Below are positions 22,746 through 26,848 of a DNA stretch of 64,000 nt, in pieces. Under the pieces are notes generated by a model. The model was not told the DNA's origin. It did no database searches and was given only the letters and a program-made list of their open reading frames with translations. The translations under genes and the position numbers were made by a program. Numbering within the stretch: the stretch's first letter is position 1; each line of letters starts with the position of its first letter. This stretch comes from a bacterium (lineage in GTDB: Bacteria; Bacteroidota; Bacteroidia; NS11-12g; UBA9320): the NCBI GenBank assembly GCA_018223105.1, contig JAAEYY010000010.1:34812-98811 (forward strand). Reading direction: 5' to 3'.

Positions 22746-23518
22746 TGCCTGTTGATTTATTCCATAAAACCTATTCAAATCCAAACTCTAATCGCTACCT
22801 GATTATCCTACATGGATTATTCGGGATGCTGGATAATTGGCATAAAATAGCCAAATCACTTTCTAGTGAGATCAATGTGGTTACAGTAGATCTCAGAAAT
22901 CATGGTCAGAGTCCGCATACCGATGAAATGTCATTGAAGTTGATGTCGGAAGACCTTTCAAAGCTCTTCGAAACCTTGGGCATTGAAAAGGCCATTTTAA
23001 TGGGACATAGCATGGGAGGTAAGGTAGCTATGGCTTTTGCTGATCAGTTTCCTCAGTATTTAGAGAAGCTGATTGTGGTGGATATTGCACCAAAAGAATA
23101 CCCTCGGGGTCATGATCGATATTTTAAAGCGTTTAGGGAGCTTGATTTTGCTTCTTTTGAGAATCGCAAGGATGCGGATGATGCTTTAGCTGAGCGCGAG
23201 CCTGTATTGGCTATACGTCAGTTCTTGTTGAAGAATATCGATAGAAAAGAAGGGGGAGGATATGAGCTTAAATTGAATGTGGAGGCTATTGAGAAGTTCT
23301 ATCCAAGTTTGATTCAGTCGCTTGATTTTCAGTGGATTATTGATGTTCCGAGTCTGTTTATTAATGGGGCTAAATCTGAGTATATTTTAGAGGAGGATAG
23401 AGCAGTTATTGCTGAGACGTTTACGAACGCTGAGTTTGAGACGATTGAGGGAGCGGGGCATTGGATACATGCGGAGAAGCCGGAGGAGTTTAAGGAAGTG
23501 GTGCGGAGGTTTATTTGA
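22745..23518 (+). CDS. Alpha/beta hydrolase (YbfF-like esterase)
   Basis: HGLFG, DLRNHG, GHSMGG, AGHWIHAE. Confidence 0.9.
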   Translation: MPVDLFHKTYSNPNSNRYLIILHGLFGMLDNWHKIAKSLSSEINVVTVDLRNHGQSPHTDEMSLKLMSEDLSKLFETLGIEKAILMGHSMGGKVAMAFADQFPQYLEKLIVVDIAPKEYPRGHDRYFKAFRELDFASFENRKDADDALAEREPVLAIRQFLLKNIDRKEGGGYELKLNVEAIEKFYPSLIQSLDFQWIIDVPSLFINGAKSEYILEEDRAVIAETFTNAEFETIEGAGHWIHAEKPEEFKEVVRRFI

Positions 23519-23520
23519 TT

Positions 23521-23653
23521 TCTCTCGCGGAGCCGCTGAGTACGCAGAATATCTCTCACAAAGCCACGAAGCCACGAAGGGCAATTAAAAAACACTTTCT
23601 GTTTAGTTTGACGCTTTTGGCAACCTACTAGGCAAATTATTCTCTCACAGAGG
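23521..23653 (+). repeat. Cluster of REP-like units (TCTCTC-(G/A)C(A/G)GAG / CACAAAG type)
   Basis: Three units starting TCTCTC at 23521, 23552 and 23641 with internal short tandem motifs (GCCACGAA x2). The third is interrupted by the IS; CACAGAGG resumes at 24206-24213. Confidence 0.6.
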
Positions 23654-24203
23654 CCTTTAGATTCGAACTTTAATATTTCAGATTATATTTATTAAACATA
23701 TCTGGAGAACCAGAGAAATTGAAGTGAACTAAACAGAGGCATAGATCAGGATCTATTCTGTGTATTAGACTTCTCTTTCTCAAGGGTTTATGTGCCATTT
23801 AGAATTTTAAGCGTGTAGGCTTATTAAAGGTATTAGCTTAAAACCCCTCTTGTGGTTCCCCAAAAATTTAAAAAGGTATGGAAAAGATATTTACAGGAAT
23901 TGACATTTCAAAGGACTGGCTGGATTTTGTTGTTTGTTCTGACCAACATCAAGTTCTTCTCGGTCCTGAAAGAGTGACTAATGATGCCAAGGGTATCAGT
24001 AAACTCATCGCTAAATCATCTGCTCTTGCTCAATCTAATTGGTTCTGTTTTGAACACACCGGTAGTTATGGACTCGTTCTGTGCAGTTTACTACAAGCCA
24101 GAGATTGCGACTTCTCAGTTGTTCCCGCCTTAGAGATTATTCAGTCTCAAGGCATGACTCGAGGTAAGTCTGACAAGATTGATGCTCAAAGAATTGCACA
24201 GGG
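23653..24203 (+). mobile_element. Truncated IS110-family element (left non-coding end plus 5' part of recombinase)
   Basis: Structured ~220-nt 5' non-coding end, then the DEDD RuvC-like N-terminus; junctions fall inside a CACAGAGG repeat. Confidence 0.8.
23704..23861 (+). ncRNA. Putative IS110 bridge RNA
   Basis: Outer stem GGAGAACCA/TGGTTCCCC. Hairpin 1 (23713-23781) has internal-loop strands ACAGAGGC and TCTGTGTA; hairpin 2 (23783-23848) has TTAAAGGT. These match the flanking target and element end. Confidence 0.7.
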
Positions 24204-24273
24204 TGCACAGAGGATCTACATTCTACGTAGCTTCAGCGGAGGTGAAGAGGGTTTACTGGGACAAAGCGGCTAG
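23878..24273 (+). pseudogene. IS110 family recombinase, N-terminal fragment
   Basis: GIDISKD, FEHTGSYG, RGKSDKIDAQRIA (D-E-D-D residues). Homology stops near 24200 and the frame runs into repeat DNA; the Ser-containing C-terminal domain is absent. Confidence 0.88.
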
Positions 24274-24349
24274 ATTACATTCTTTTTGCTCGTAAATTCC
24301 TTGCTGCGGTAGTTATGAAATTCTTTATAATTGTTACAGAAATTAAGAG

Positions 24350-26848
24350 GTGAGGCTAAACGCATTTTTAATACTACTTTTTTACGCTGTACTTTCCTTT
24401 GCTCAAAACACGGTCATTACGGGTAGAGTTGTGGATGGAAACACGGGTGAACCTTTGCCTTTTGTTACCATGCGGGCTTCTAATGCTCAGGTGGGTGCCA
24501 TCACAGATTTCGATGGATATTACAAACTAACTACCGACGTTCCTTTCGACAGTCTAATCGCCGATTATTTTGGTTATGAAGATCTAGCTCTTCCAGTTAA
24601 GAACGGAGAGACTCAGGTGCTTGATTTTACCTTGTATCCTGCCACCAATACCATAGGTGAAGTAGTAGTAAAACCGGGAGGGGTAAACCCCGCCGAAATC
24701 ATTATGAAACGAGCGAGGAAGAACAAGAAAGAGTACAATCCGGAGAAAATAGAATATTACCAATACGACGGATATAATAAGGTTCAACTGGCCGTAGATA
24801 ATGTCACCGACAAGTTCCAAAAGCGTAAAATCTTTAAGGCAATGGAGCCGTTGTTTGATACAATTTCTGCGTTTACAGATTCTTCGTCTAATAAAGTATT
24901 GCCAGTTTTTGTATCGGAGACCGTGAGTGAATACTACTTCAGGAAAACGCCGAGAAGAACAAAAGAAGTGATATTAGCTACCAAGGTCCAAGGTGTGGGC
25001 GTTGGCGAAGAGAGCTACATCGCACAAGTGCTGGGATCTACATTTCAGCAGTATAATTTCTACGAAAACAACCTCTATATCTTAGATAAAGATTTTATAT
25101 CACCTCTGTCCATTCAAGCGAGTTTATACTACTATTTCCAACTCATAGATACCATGAGGATTGATGGTCAGCTTTGCCATCAAATCCATGTCACGGGACA
25201 AAACCCCAAAGACCTCGTATTCAATGGTATGATCTGGATTACCGACTCTACCTATGCTATAAAAAGACTCAATTTGGAGATCACCAAAGAGGCCAATCTT
25301 AACTTTATTGAGAAGCTCAAGATACAGCAAGAATTTGTAGAAGTGGAGCCTAACTACTGGCTGCCGTACAAAACCAGGGTATTAATTGACATTTCTGAGC
25401 TTACAGGAAACACTGCCGGGATGATAGGCTTGTATTACAATTCAGCAAAGAATATCACTATCAACCGTGCTAAAGAATTGAGCTTTTACGAGGAGAAAAT
25501 CAATGTAAAAGAGGATGCATACCACAAAACCACGGAATACTGGGATTCAGCCCGACACGAACAAATTAGCGAGGTAGATAAACGGGTCTACAAACTGGTC
25601 GACTCACTTAAAAACCAACCTTTGGTAAAGACCTATGTCGACATTGTCGAGATCTTGGTTGAGGGTCATGTGCCCATGGGCAAAATAGAACTGGGTCCTT
25701 ATCATTATTTGGTAGGATATAACCGATTGGAAGGATTTAGAACCAGAATTGGCTTTAGAACGAGTCCGGAGTTTTCAAAGAACTTCATGTTCCGAACCTA
25801 TGGAGCTTATGGTTTTAAGGACGAGCAGTTTAAGTATGGATTCTTTGCAGATTATGTATTTAACCGCACCAAATGGGCCAAGGGAGGAGCGTACATTAAA
25901 AAAGATGTGGAGTTGATAGGTTTAACCGATGAAGAAGTGGGAACTTCTGCCTTGTACGATGCCTTTGCTACCTTTGGAACGGATCAACTGAACCGGGCGT
26001 TTACAAAACGGATTTGGTATGAGAAAGAATTGATCAAAGGCTACACCCAAAAGATCAATTTCACTCAAAAAGACTTCATTTTCGACCCCATTGGCGAGTT
26101 TAATTTTAAATATGACCCATTTCCACTGGACAGTAATAATGAACTTCAATCTGATTTCAGTATTACCACCGTCAATTTAAGAGGAAGAATCTCGCATAAG
26201 GAACAGTTTATCATCCGAAGGAACAATCGCTACAGCTTGGGTAACTTAAAAGCTCCTGTGCTGAGCATAGACTATACTCATGGATTTAAAAATGTGCTTG
26301 GCGGTGATTTTGATTTCGACAAACTCGGATTGGAGTTATGGCAGTTCAATAGCCTGGGCAACTTAGGAACTTTTGAATATACCGTAAAAGCCTATAAGGT
26401 CTTTGGTACCTTACCTTACCCTATTTTGTTCATCATGCGGGGAAATGAGAGTCCTTTGAGTAGTTCTATTTCTTACAACCTCATGGACTTCTTTGAGTTT
26501 GCTGCGGATCAATATCTTTCTGTGGATTATGAGCATCAGTTTAATGGAATCATATTGAACCGAGTTCCATTGATTAAAAACCTCAAATGGAGGGCTTTTG
26601 TAAACACCAAAGCGGTGTATGGCACTATGAGTACAGCCAACAGTGCTTTAATGCCCATGGACGAAACGGGAATTACCAATCCGGCCTTTTTCAGATCAGG
26701 TATTCCCTATTGGGAATTGGGCTATGGAATAGAAAACATCTTCCGTTTTATAAGGGTGGATTTCATTCATAGAATGACCTATGTAGGGGATAATTATCCC
26801 GATGCAAGGAGATTTGGTGTGAAGTTTAATGCGGTGTTGAGATTCTAG
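24350..26848 (+). CDS. Outer-membrane protein with CarboxypepD_reg-like N-terminus and DUF5686
   Basis: Signal peptide, ITGRVVDGNTGEPLPF, FISPL, YNRLEGFR, GIENIFRFIRVD, terminal Phe. Confidence 0.85.
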   Translation: MRLNAFLILLFYAVLSFAQNTVITGRVVDGNTGEPLPFVTMRASNAQVGAITDFDGYYKLTTDVPFDSLIADYFGYEDLALPVKNGETQVLDFTLYPATNTIGEVVVKPGGVNPAEIIMKRARKNKKEYNPEKIEYYQYDGYNKVQLAVDNVTDKFQKRKIFKAMEPLFDTISAFTDSSSNKVLPVFVSETVSEYYFRKTPRRTKEVILATKVQGVGVGEESYIAQVLGSTFQQYNFYENNLYILDKDFISPLSIQASLYYYFQLIDTMRIDGQLCHQIHVTGQNPKDLVFNGMIWITDSTYAIKRLNLEITKEANLNFIEKLKIQQEFVEVEPNYWLPYKTRVLIDISELTGNTAGMIGLYYNSAKNITINRAKELSFYEEKINVKEDAYHKTTEYWDSARHEQISEVDKRVYKLVDSLKNQPLVKTYVDIVEILVEGHVPMGKIELGPYHYLVGYNRLEGFRTRIGFRTSPEFSKNFMFRTYGAYGFKDEQFKYGFFADYVFNRTKWAKGGAYIKKDVELIGLTDEEVGTSALYDAFATFGTDQLNRAFTKRIWYEKELIKGYTQKINFTQKDFIFDPIGEFNFKYDPFPLDSNNELQSDFSITTVNLRGRISHKEQFIIRRNNRYSLGNLKAPVLSIDYTHGFKNVLGGDFDFDKLGLELWQFNSLGNLGTFEYTVKAYKVFGTLPYPILFIMRGNESPLSSSISYNLMDFFEFAADQYLSVDYEHQFNGIILNRVPLIKNLKWRAFVNTKAVYGTMSTANSALMPMDETGITNPAFFRSGIPYWELGYGIENIFRFIRVDFIHRMTYVGDNYPDARRFGVKFNAVLRF

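What the first reader, a model, noticed from the sequence alone, without database searches (positions are those of the whole stretch)
23641..24213. IS110 bridge RNA whose guide loops read out its own REP target and donor end
Seen: hairpin 1 (GAGAAA/GAAGT/CTAA pairing with TTAG/ACTTC/TTTCTC, capped by ATAGATC-AG-GATCTAT) has a 5' loop strand ACAGAGGC (23733-23740), identical to the left junction 23647-23654. Its 3' loop strand TCTGTGTA (23757-23764) is complementary, with one G-U, to TGCACAGA at the right flank (24204-24211). Hairpin 2 (GGGTTT/AAACCC, capped by TAAGC/GCTTA) has 3' loop strand TTAAAGGT, complementary with two G-U to the element's first bases GCCTTTAG (23653-23660). Known: this same-sense left guide and antisense right guide layout is that of the IS621 bridge RNA. 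Inference: a Bacteroidota IS110 programmed for CACAGAG-type repeats, with a probable AG (or GG) core; the missing right end should resemble the loop strand CATTTAG. The recombinase is truncated, but the RNA looks intact and could act in trans.
Basis: partly seen in the sequence, partly recalled or inferred. Interest (0 to 1): 0.78.

Follow-up and report, generated by a model that had tools for sequence, protein, structure and literature searches.

The report
Truncated IS110 element with bridge RNA
This is a broken copy of a known kind of jumping gene (IS110 family) that has kept its guide RNA, whose loops spell out the repeat it landed in and its own left end; it is a clear example of a known mechanism, not a new one.

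Summary
Window 23655-24197 is a 543-bp relic of an IS110-group insertion sequence. It holds the left end, a complete bridge RNA (23704-23861) and the first 107 codons of the DEDD recombinase. It sits inside a tandem CACAGAGG-type intergenic repeat.

A covariance model built from relatives finds the same RNA upstream of full-length recombinases in Bacteroidota. 29 of 35 stem pairs show compensatory change. Across relatives the 5' strand of loop 1 tracks the left flank. The 3' strand tracks the right flank. The 3' strand of loop 2 tracks the element's first bases. Each of the first two tests gave 0 of 10000 permutations.

- By the IS621 register the core is GC (23653-54), not AG or GG.
- The missing right end should read TTAGAAT, not CATTTAG.

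Uninterrupted copies of the target exist elsewhere in the genome. A nearly identical longer copy exists in another metagenome.

The assembled genome (90% complete) encodes no IS110 recombinase, so the RNA is an orphan there. This is a new member of a known kind; interest is modest.

The parts
23646..23652 (+). Left target half (LT) CACAGAG, the last unit of the upstream repeat array
   Evidence: The last six bases (23647-52) are identical to bases 2-7 of the 5' loop strand. Across relatives, left flanks match their own loop strand: mean 6.32 of 8 against 3.84 for cross pairs, 0 of 10000 permutations.
23653..23654 (+). Core dinucleotide GC, left copy
   Evidence: These are the last two bases of the 9-nt left target guide in the IS621 register (passages). 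In relatives the two bases before CTTTAG and after AGAAT are A/G then C. In L080-type relatives all four guides spell GC.
23655..23703 (+). Left end (LE) proper. It starts CTTTAGATTCG and carries TAGATTCG (23658-65), a TAnnTTTG-like -7 box, plus a second candidate promoter: TTCG 23662-65, an 18-nt spacer, then TATATTTA 23684-91
   Evidence: The same first 37 bases recur at G000:C1 behind a different flank. The LE start is conserved in relatives. Promoter function is inferred, not shown.
23704..23861 (+). Bridge RNA, closed by an outer stem GAACC 23707-11 / GGTTC 23854-58
   Evidence: Covariance model R1 gives 146.5 bits, E 8e-32, over the full model 1-155. It is the only hit in the genome. Over 39 relatives 90.5% of cells are paired and 29 of 35 pairs show compensatory change.
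23732..23740 (+). Left target guide (LTG) AACAGAGGC, the 5' strand of the target-binding loop
   Evidence: 8 of its 9 bases equal 23647-23654. It covaries with left flanks across the family.
23757..23765 (+). 3' strand of the target-binding loop, TCTGTGTAT. The first 7 bases are the right target guide (RTG). The last AT matches the last two bases of the right end in relatives
   Evidence: UCUGUGU pairs with GCACAGG (24196-202) by 5 Watson-Crick pairs plus 2 G-U pairs. In relatives the RTG pairs with core plus right flank at mean 5.24 of 7 against 2.91, 0 of 10000 permutations.
23799..23807 (+). Left donor guide (LDG) TTAGAAT+TT, on the 5' strand of the donor-binding loop
   Evidence: Relatives' right ends finish ...CTTAGAAT followed by A/T then C. 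It cannot be tested in the window because the right end is missing.
23824..23831 (+). Right donor guide (RDG) TTAAAGGT, on the 3' strand of the donor-binding loop
   Evidence: It is the reverse complement, with 2 G-U pairs, of GCCTTTAG at 23653-60. In 29 of 30 non-redundant relatives the RDG matches the LE start, in four covarying versions.
23878..24197 (+). First 107 codons of the DEDD (RuvC-like) recombinase domain. The open frame then reads on into repeat DNA to the stop at 24273
   Evidence: PF01548 covers residues 7-112, profile positions 2-108 of 155, E 3e-17. NF033542 covers profile 1-107 of 343. It is 79% identical to the full-length P0001. Homology stops after A107. Contig record 10 of run X2 diverges exactly after 24197.
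24196..24202 (+). Right copy of GC plus right target half (RT) ACAGG. This is the true right junction
   Evidence: Removing 23655-24197 gives CACAGAGGCACAGGGTGCACAGAGG. That differs at 1 of 25 bases from the uninterrupted array at G000:C15:35477.
24198..24246 (.). Rest of the repeat array (ACAGGGT GCACAGAGG), followed by the dispersed module GATCTACATTCTACGTAGCTTCAGCGGAGGTGAA
   Evidence: The 19-nt module core occurs 14 times in the genome at up to 3 mismatches, this copy included.

Best explanation
Window 23655-24197 is a truncated copy of an IS110-group insertion sequence from a Bacteroidota lineage. It inserted into a tandem CACAGAGG-type intergenic repeat at CACAGAG-GC-ACAGG. It keeps the left end, a complete LE-encoded bridge RNA (23704-23861) and the first 107 codons of the recombinase. 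It has lost the Tnp (serine) domain and the right end.

The RNA folds into two hairpins, each with an internal loop, closed by an outer stem. In loop 1 the 5' strand (AACAGAGGC) is same-sense to the left target plus core. The 3' strand (UCUGUGU) is antisense to core plus right target. In loop 2 the 5' strand (UUAGAAU) is same-sense to the family's right end. The 3' strand (UUAAAGGU) is antisense to core plus the element's first bases.

With a full-length recombinase this RNA would bridge the circular RE-LE junction and the repeat target, as IS621 does. In this genome it is a relic: there is no recombinase gene, and the half of the junction promoter carried by the right end is gone.

Shown here: the sequence matches, the structure covariation, the guide-to-flank covariation in relatives, the empty paralogous sites and the breakpoint. 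Inferred: that the RNA is made, that it binds a recombinase, and how the truncation arose.
For: Recombinase fragment: PF01548 E 3e-17, NF033542 profile 1-107 of 343, 79% identity to the 328-aa P0001, which passes the NF033542 cut-off at 174 bits against 140.

RNA: model R1, built from 9 sequences, hits the + strand upstream of the recombinase gene in 59 of 66 matches over 98 sources. The other 7 are weak minus-strand hits of 24.8-26.2 bits. On 39 CM-aligned sequences 90.5% of cells pair against 70.1% shuffled (0 of 500). 29 of 35 pairs change on both sides, and slid controls pair 29-48%. On the independent MAFFT alignment, 16 of 37 RNAalifold pairs are compensatory.

Guides: the LTG matches its own left flank at 6.32 of 8 against 3.84 for cross pairs, n=31 non-redundant, 0 of 10000. 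The RTG pairs with its own right junction at 5.24 of 7 against 2.91, n=25, with 9 perfect, 0 of 10000. The RDG matches the LE start in 29 of 30, in four covarying versions: TTAAAGG/CCTTTAG, TTATAGG/CCTATAG, TTAATGG/CCATTAG, TTAAGAG/CTCTTAG. Right ends of relatives finish in TTAGAAT, matching the LDG strand.

Target: three uninterrupted CACAGAGGCACAGG... arrays lie in the same genome. A related strain in run X2 joins the left flank directly to the repeat tail.

Breakpoint: contig record 10 of X2 has 3 differences over 23689-24197. It then continues as intact recombinase coding sequence where the window turns into repeat.
Against: No RNA data: no listed sequencing run is RNA, so expression is unshown. 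The single-sequence fold is only z -2.29, and both it and RNAalifold pair the LTG with the RTG, so in free RNA loop 1 may be closed. The LDG cannot be checked in the window because the right end is missing. The two LDG positions opposite the core (TT) do not match GC; in relatives the first of these is also unmatched. The fixed-register LTG test is weaker (3.87 against 2.62), because the distance between the guide match and the LE start varies by 1-2 bases among subfamilies. 5 of 25 RTG comparisons score 0-2 of 7, probably from mis-located right ends, which I did not verify. The A4 alignment is fitted to the model, so its pair counts lean towards the structure. No Rfam family matched.
Confidence: 0.88

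Rival explanations
1. The fragment is not simple decay. It is a recombinase-made product, formed either by an internal deletion or by excision and re-insertion of a 543-bp mini-element. In this reading the internal sequence AAAGAATT-GC-CTT (codons R-I-A) acted as a pseudo right end or pseudo donor. That would explain why the right junction falls exactly on a GC core followed by the correct right target half.
For: Homology to the insertion sequence ends exactly after GC at 24197. Removing 23655-24197 restores an array that differs by 1 of 25 bases from a paralogous empty site, so no target bases are lost or gained. The internal AGAAT-T-GC-CTT resembles the donor junction AGAAT-RC-CTT inferred from relatives. 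A 2026 preprint reports excision driven by donor-arm recognition alone (abstract of 10.64898/2026.08.31.748434).
Against: In the family register the 7 bases before the GC (AAGAATT) match the LDG (TTAGAAT) at only 2 of 7; the match needs a 1-base slip. A deletion by TGC/GCA microhomology between the internal site and the true right junction (AGAAT|GCA) gives the same product. Repeat arrays vary in unit number, so a deletion ending in phase in a later unit cannot be excluded. No second copy of the truncated form was found in the genome. No fragment truncated the same way was seen among the fetched loci.
Confidence: 0.2
2. Hairpin 1 is just an extended hairpin, or a captured piece of the repeat, in a 5' UTR. 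Its likeness to the flanks arises because the element sits in repeat DNA, not because the strands are guides.
For: ACAGA and UCUGU are complementary, and both the single-sequence fold and RNAalifold pair them. The flanks are repeats in which CACAGAG recurs. The 8-mer coincidence alone is not significant at window scale.
Against: In relatives the two strands track the left and right flanks separately. This includes elements whose targets are not tandem repeats and whose two strands are not complementary to each other: L016 loses 4 of the 5 'pairs', and L080-type and L053-type elements behave likewise. Both permutation tests give 0 of 10000. The self-complementarity follows from targeting two successive units of a tandem repeat.
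Confidence: 0.04
3. The apparent truncation is an assembly artefact, and the organism carries a full-length copy at this site.
For: The genome is a 49-contig draft. Insertion sequences often break or collapse assemblies. A 99%-identical longer copy exists in another sample.
Against: In X1, a contig of 3135 bases spans 23661-24900 with no differences. In X3, from the same study, a 733-base contig spans 24060-24792 across the junction. X1 may be the source of the assembly, so it is not independent. No loose end at 24197 is listed for X1 or X3, but 3 loose ends were not shown.
Confidence: 0.05

Closest known systems
IS621 (E. coli, IS110 group) and its bridge RNA (Durrant et al. 2024, PMC11208160; passages read)
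   Same: DEDD recombinase. The RNA is encoded in the long left end upstream of the gene. There are two internal loops. The LTG is same-sense to left target plus core, and the RTG is antisense to core plus right target. The LDG and RDG do the same for the RE-LE donor junction. It inserts into intergenic repeats. In relatives a promoter is rebuilt across the circle junction.
   Different: Different phylum (Bacteroidota relatives) and no detectable sequence likeness of the RNA (no Rfam hit). An outer stem closes both hairpins. The core is A/G-C rather than CT, with a U in the RTG and RDG that tolerates either purine. The target is two successive units of a tandem 8-9-nt repeat, which makes the LTG and RTG complementary to each other. 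The junction promoter is of the Bacteroidota -33 TTTG / -7 TAnnTTTG type (the motif name comes from the paper listing). The window copy is truncated.
ISPpu9 / ISPpu10 of Pseudomonas putida (IS110 family elements inserted in REP sequences; abstracts of PMC12288879 and 10.64898/2026.03.19.712850 seen in the listing)
   Same: IS110-family elements whose insertions map to repeated extragenic sequences.
   Different: Those targets are palindromic REP elements of a proteobacterium. Here the target is a direct tandem repeat in a mosaic of other repeat modules. I did not compare sequences.
IS1111-group elements with the guide RNA (seekRNA / bridge RNA) in the right end
   Same: Same recombinase family and the same guide logic (passages).
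   Different: There the RNA lies downstream of the gene, and there are sub-terminal inverted repeats of 7-17 bp. Here the RNA is in the left end, which places the element in the IS110 group.

Membership tests
IS110 family (IS110 group) insertion sequence | N-terminal DEDD / RuvC-like domain (PF01548) | tested here: met
   residues 7-112, profile positions 2-108 of 155, E 3.2e-17, 63.2 bits against a cut-off of 29. D9, E59, D99 and D102 lie in invariant columns. Assigning these to the DEDD tetrad is from recall.
IS110 family (IS110 group) insertion sequence | C-terminal Tnp domain (PF02371) carrying the catalytic serine | tested here: not met
   It is absent from the window copy, which ends at codon 107, and from the whole assembly (assembly 90.3% complete). 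It is present in the relatives P0001-P0024. The window therefore holds a defective member, not a functional one.
IS110 family (IS110 group) insertion sequence | NCBIfam NF033542, IS110 family RNA-guided transposase | tested here: inconclusive
   the window fragment scores 63.9 bits, below the 140-bit cut-off, because only profile positions 1-107 of 343 remain. The 79%-identical P0001 scores 174.3 bits and passes.
Bridge RNA of IS110-group elements | A structured RNA in the left end, upstream of the recombinase gene, with two hairpins that each carry an internal loop | tested here: met
   the model hits at a constant place upstream of the gene, 29 of 35 pairs are compensatory, and 90.5% of cells pair.
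Bridge RNA of IS110-group elements | LTG same-sense to left target plus core; RTG antisense to core plus right target | tested here: met
   In the window the LTG matches at 8 of 9, and the RTG forms 5 Watson-Crick plus 2 G-U pairs of 7 with 24196-202. Across the family both permutation tests give 0 of 10000.
Bridge RNA of IS110-group elements | RDG antisense to core plus the first bases of the left end | tested here: met
   In the window UUAAAGGU pairs with GCCTTTAG, with 2 G-U pairs. 29 of 30 relatives agree, in four covarying versions.
Bridge RNA of IS110-group elements | LDG same-sense to the last bases of the right end plus core | tested here: inconclusive
   The right end is missing from the window. 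In relatives the right end finishes TTAGAAT, as the loop strand does. However, the two LDG positions opposite the core are mostly unmatched outside the L080 type.
Bridge RNA of IS110-group elements | The same core dinucleotide at both junctions and in all four guides | tested here: inconclusive
   The window has GC at 23653-54 and GC at 24196-97, but the right copy is internal recombinase sequence. In relatives the second base, C, is constant. The first is A or G and can differ between the left and right junctions.
Bridge RNA of IS110-group elements | The RNA is transcribed and bound by the recombinase, and it directs recombination | not testable with these tools
   No RNA run is listed.
Rfam families | A match to a curated RNA family | tested here: not met
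   over 23300-24500 at E up to 10, the only hit is a chance mir-7 match (16.1 bits, E 4.7).

The most novel reading that the evidence does not exclude
The 543-bp piece is a recombinase-less mini-element that carries only the bridge RNA. It would have been made when the recombinase used an internal GC pseudo-core in the R-I-A codons as a right end. It was then inserted, or resolved in place, with exact target junctions. On this reading, IS110 elements can spawn MITE-like, RNA-only derivatives that full-length copies in the population, such as the one in run X2, could move in trans.
Probability: 0.15. Interest if true: 0.55.

Novelty: new member of a known kind. Interest (0 to 1): 0.3.

Why it matters
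The result shows that a bare-sequence reading can recover the four guides of a bridge RNA. It also adds a Bacteroidota subfamily whose natural programming is easy to read: the target is two successive units of a tandem octamer/nonamer repeat, the core is A/G-C, and the donor is TTAGAAT-RC-CTTTAG. The set of relatives, with covarying guides, flanks and ends, gives natural examples of retargeting, including non-repeat targets. It also shows a junction promoter with Bacteroidota -33/-7 motifs, which could help anyone wanting bridge recombinases that work natively in Bacteroidota. For the genome itself, this is an annotation: one dead insertion sequence and one orphan non-coding RNA. Nothing here changes the known mechanism.

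Tried and rejected
- Full-length copy in the same genome: none. Searches (DNA; protein P0001; PF02371; RNA model) find only the window copy and a roughly 45-base left-end remnant on contig C1.
- Close DNA relatives in 60 related genomes: none. There were three short weak hits of 36-48 bases.
- Rfam: no family.
- Expression: no RNA holder is listed among the sequencing runs, so nothing can be said about it.
- Earlier findings of this scan near the place: nothing to show.
- Exact 14-base predicted target in the genome: 0 hits. With purine wobble allowed there are 4 overlapping hits in 3 arrays.
- Fragments truncated the same way among the fetched loci: none. Every locus with under 300 residues matched (L016, L019, L044, L060, L066, L068, L072, L100) is either cut by the end of its contig or, for L044, is a full-length copy by DNA comparison with L024.
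- Reading the internal AAGAATT as an in-register pseudo right end: rejected as the main explanation, since only 2 of 7 bases match the LDG register.
- The DNA encoding P0001, the closest full-length relative, could not be fetched.
- Supplementary tables of the papers were not opened. They may list Bacteroidota IS110 orthologues that include this subfamily.
Full report
**1. What is in the sequence**

- ACAGAGGC is at 23647-54 and again at 23733-40. These are its only two occurrences in the window.
- TCTGTGTA is at 23757-64, TGCACAGA at 24204-11 and TTAAAGGT at 23824-31.
- The stems of both hairpins are as described.
- CATTTAG is at 23796-23802, one base before the stated range.

The open frame 23878-24273 begins with a clear IS110 DEDD domain. 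PF01548 matches profile positions 2-108 of 155 at E 3e-17. NF033542 'IS110 family RNA-guided transposase' matches profile positions 1-107 of 343.

Taken alone, the coincidences are not compelling. 26 of 100 shuffles of the window carry 2 or more copies of the 8-mer somewhere. The fold of 23655-23880 is only z -2.29 against shuffles. That fold also pairs the two supposed loop strands of hairpin 1 with each other.

**2. Relatives**

The same genome holds no second copy. DNA searches, a protein search with the closest full-length relative, a Pfam PF02371 search and the RNA model find only two things. One is the window copy. The other is a remnant of roughly 45 bases of the left end on contig C1, behind a different flank (TTTCGCAGAA-AC|CTTTAG). 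The assembly has 49 contigs and is 90.3% complete. Sixty related genomes have no close DNA match.

Protein searches found full-length 327-340-residue relatives. The best is P0001 at 79% identity over 328 aa, and all carry PF01548 plus PF02371. They also yielded 39 loci in named Bacteroidota assemblies: Cyclobacteriaceae, Crocinitomicaceae, Fluviicola, Saprospiraceae, Chitinophagaceae and Bacteroidales. A further 80 metagenome loci came.

Three identical copies in one closed genome (L011-L013) define an element of about 1.26 kb. It has about 238 bases of left end before the ATG and about 30 bases after the stop.

**3. The RNA**

A MAFFT alignment of nine upstream regions shows the window's two hairpins, closed by an outer stem (GAACC 23707-11 / GGTTC 23854-58). 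RNAalifold finds 16 of 37 pairs with compensatory change.

A covariance model with the loops left open (R1) gives 66 matches over 98 sources.
- 59 are on the + strand, at a constant place upstream of the recombinase gene.
- 7 are weak minus-strand hits of 24.8-26.2 bits.
- The window scores 146.5 bits over the whole model.

On 39 sequences aligned to the model, pair counts are strong.
- 90.5% of cells pair, against 70.1% in shuffles (0 of 500 reach it).
- 29 of 35 pairs change on both sides.
- Sliding the partners by 1-3 columns drops pairing to 29-48%.

That alignment is fitted to the model, so these counts lean towards the structure. The MAFFT result is the independent check. No Rfam family matches.

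**4. The guides**

The layout to test was taken from passages of Durrant et al. 2024 (PMC11208160). [quoted passage not shown] The LDG and RDG do likewise for the donor. [quoted passage not shown]

(a) LTG. Of the 59 + strand hits, 40 had a locatable left end and a 9-base guide column, and 31 were non-redundant by guide. The last 8 bases of the 5' loop strand match the element's own left flank at a mean of 6.32 of 8, allowing a register slip of up to 2. Cross pairs give 3.84, and 0 of 10000 permutations reach the observed mean. In a fixed register the figures are 3.87 against 2.62, also 0 of 10000. Examples, all in the same columns:
- window: ACAGAGG|C
- L011: ACGGATT|C
- L016: GTCATTG|C
- L054: GCAGAGG|C
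- L080 type: AGTGCGACG|CC

(b) RTG. In 25 non-redundant elements where a right end could be located, the first 7 bases of the 3' loop strand pair with the 7 bases after ...AGAAT. The mean is 5.24 Watson-Crick pairs against 2.91 for cross pairs, 0 of 10000.
- 9 are perfect, 8 have 6 pairs and 3 have 5.
- 5 have 0-2 pairs. These are probably mis-located right ends; I did not check.

(c) RDG. The left end was located by a generic pattern that does not use the guide. With it, 29 of 30 non-redundant elements have an RDG complementary to their first six bases. There are four covarying versions: TTAAAGG/CCTTTAG, TTATAGG/CCTATAG, TTAATGG/CCATTAG and TTAAGAG/CTCTTAG.

(d) LDG. Right ends of relatives finish ...CTTAGAAT, as the loop strand TTAGAAT does. 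The two positions opposite the core are matched only in the L080 type.

L016 settles the hairpin rival. Its two loop-1 strands track its flanks but are not complementary to each other: 4 of the 5 RNAalifold 'pairs' break. The LTG-RTG complementarity seen in the window follows from targeting two successive units of a tandem repeat. It is not a structural stem.

**5. Register, core and target in the window**

By the IS621 register the last two LTG bases are the core. Here that is GC (23653-54), and the element proper starts at CTTTAGA (23655).

In relatives, the two bases before CTTTAG and after AGAAT are A/G then C. The second is constant. The first can differ between the left and right junctions. 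The RTG and RDG place a U opposite the first core base, which pairs with either purine. The L080 type spells GC in all four guides.

The window's predicted target is therefore CACAGAG-GC-ACAGR. The same genome holds three uninterrupted arrays of that form. The one at C15:35477 reads CACAGAGGCACAGGGTGCGCAGAGG. Deleting window 23655-24197 gives CACAGAGGCACAGGGTGCACAGAGG, which differs at 1 of 25 bases.

So the true right half is GC+ACAGG at 24196-24202. The RTG pairs with either unit: 5 or 6 Watson-Crick pairs plus G-U.

**6. The breakpoint, and evidence from other samples**

Relatives have an invariant Y two residues after the window's A107, where the window reads Q-G.

Laying the contigs of four coded DNA runs on the region gave three useful results.
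- Record 10 of run X2, from a different study, is a 544-base contig with 3 differences and 1 gap over 23689-24197. After 24197 it runs on with 34 bases, of which 30 are shown. They read A-F-Y-A-A-T-H-Q-N-K-L in frame, which is the family's sequence at that place. So homology to the insertion sequence ends exactly after the GC at 24196-97, and a longer copy of this very element exists in nature.
- Record 9 of X2 is about 92% identical over 22900-23655. After 23655 it runs on with AGAGGATCTAC, the repeat tail at 24209-19, and then ends. This indicates an empty site in a related strain. Only 11 bases support it, so the evidence is weak.
- In X1, which may be the source of the assembly, and in X3, from the same study, contigs cross the 24197 junction unchanged. 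An assembly artefact is therefore unlikely.

**7. How the truncation arose is open**

The right junction falls on a GC followed by the correct right half, and no target bases are missing. Two routes give this product.

(a) Deletion by short homology. The internal ...AGAATTGCA would pair with the true right junction ...AGAAT|GCA..., or with a later unit of the array.

(b) A recombinase-made event that used the internal AAGAATT-GC-CTT as a pseudo end. The abstract of a 2026 preprint reports excision by donor-arm recognition alone.

Against (b), the 7 bases before the GC match the LDG register at only 2 of 7. No second copy of the truncated form was found. I put (b) at about 0.15-0.2.

**8. Expression**

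Reconstructed RE+core+LE junctions were examined in 22 non-redundant relatives with both ends. In 15 of them a TTG/TTTG lies 19-21 bases, mostly exactly 20, upstream of TA[G/A]nTTnG at left-end positions 5-12.
- This has the Bacteroidota -33/-7 form. The motif TAnnTTTG is named in papers listed, of which I saw only the listing; its meaning is recalled.
- It parallels the junction promoter that Durrant et al. describe for IS621 (passages).
- The window has TAGATTCG at 23658-65. The integrated, truncated copy lacks the right-end half of this promoter.
- A second candidate promoter lies wholly inside the left end: TTCG, 18 bases, then TATATTTA at 23684-91, 12 bases before the model start. A -7-like box anywhere in the left end was seen in 29 of 36 non-redundant left ends. 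A -33-like partner was found for 16, some of them in a meaningless register.

No RNA data exist. Whether the orphan RNA is made is unknown.

**9. Comparison with what is known, and verdict**

It works like IS621, and it is a defective member of the IS110 group. The DEDD domain, the LE-encoded two-loop RNA and three of the four guides were tested and met. The Tnp domain was tested and is absent from this copy. The LDG and the core identity are inconclusive here.

IS110 elements with bridge RNAs, their insertion into extragenic repeats and the covariation of guides with targets are all in print (PMC11208160; the listing). A search for 'IS110' + 'bridge RNA' + 'Bacteroidota' found three papers. 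I saw them as a listing only, and none has the topic in its title.

This is a new member of a known kind.

Noticed in passing
window 23519-23653 and 24198-24349; G000 contigs C7, C8, C12, C15, C20, C46, C47: The intergenic DNA around the element is a mosaic of dispersed repeat modules. These include tandem CAC[A/G]GAGG-type 8-9-nt units, GATCTACATTCTACGTAGCTTCAGCGGAGGTGAA (14 copies of its 19-nt core at up to 3 mismatches, this one included) and a TTTGGCA...TAGGCAAATTATTCTCTCACAG head. Their nature and origin are unknown. Relatives of the insertion sequence in other Bacteroidota sit in similar CACGGAG / CACGAAG / CACTAAG arrays.
   Followed up: partly
G000:C1:32161-32204 (minus strand; loci L002 and L007): A second remnant of the same element holds only about the first 45 bases of the left end. 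It sits behind the flank TTTCGCAGAA-AC, which the window's left target guide could still pair with at 7 of 8 positions counting wobble. It has no RNA or recombinase part.
   Followed up: partly
loci L008-L105 (relatives), reconstructed RE+core+LE junctions: In 15 of 22 non-redundant relatives the circle junction would place TTG/TTTG from the right end exactly 19-21 bases upstream of a TAnnTTTG-like box at left-end positions 5-12. This is a Bacteroidota-type counterpart of the IS621 junction promoter. The box overlaps the bases read by the right donor guide.
   Followed up: partly
window 23732-23763; alignment A2 columns 30-34 and 54-58: In most relatives the left and right target guides are complementary to each other, because the target is two successive units of a tandem repeat. 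In free RNA the target-binding loop may therefore be closed. Whether this affects loading or activity is unknown.
   Followed up: no
L008:3001-3420 and L018:3001-3306: Two relatives with both ends present have recombinase frames interrupted, after 139 and 101 codons. These are decayed copies in other genomes.
   Followed up: no
protein P0001 residues 167-298: The full-length relative gives a sub-threshold NCBIfam match to NF052498, 'TIGR-Tas system RNA-guided endonuclease' (33.7 bits against a cut-off of 100). The match covers its C-terminal half.
   Followed up: no
run X2, contig record 10, laid on window 23689-24197: A copy 99% identical to the window fragment continues as intact coding sequence in a marine metagenome from a different study. 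This element or a very close sibling is, or recently was, complete in the wider population.
   Followed up: partly
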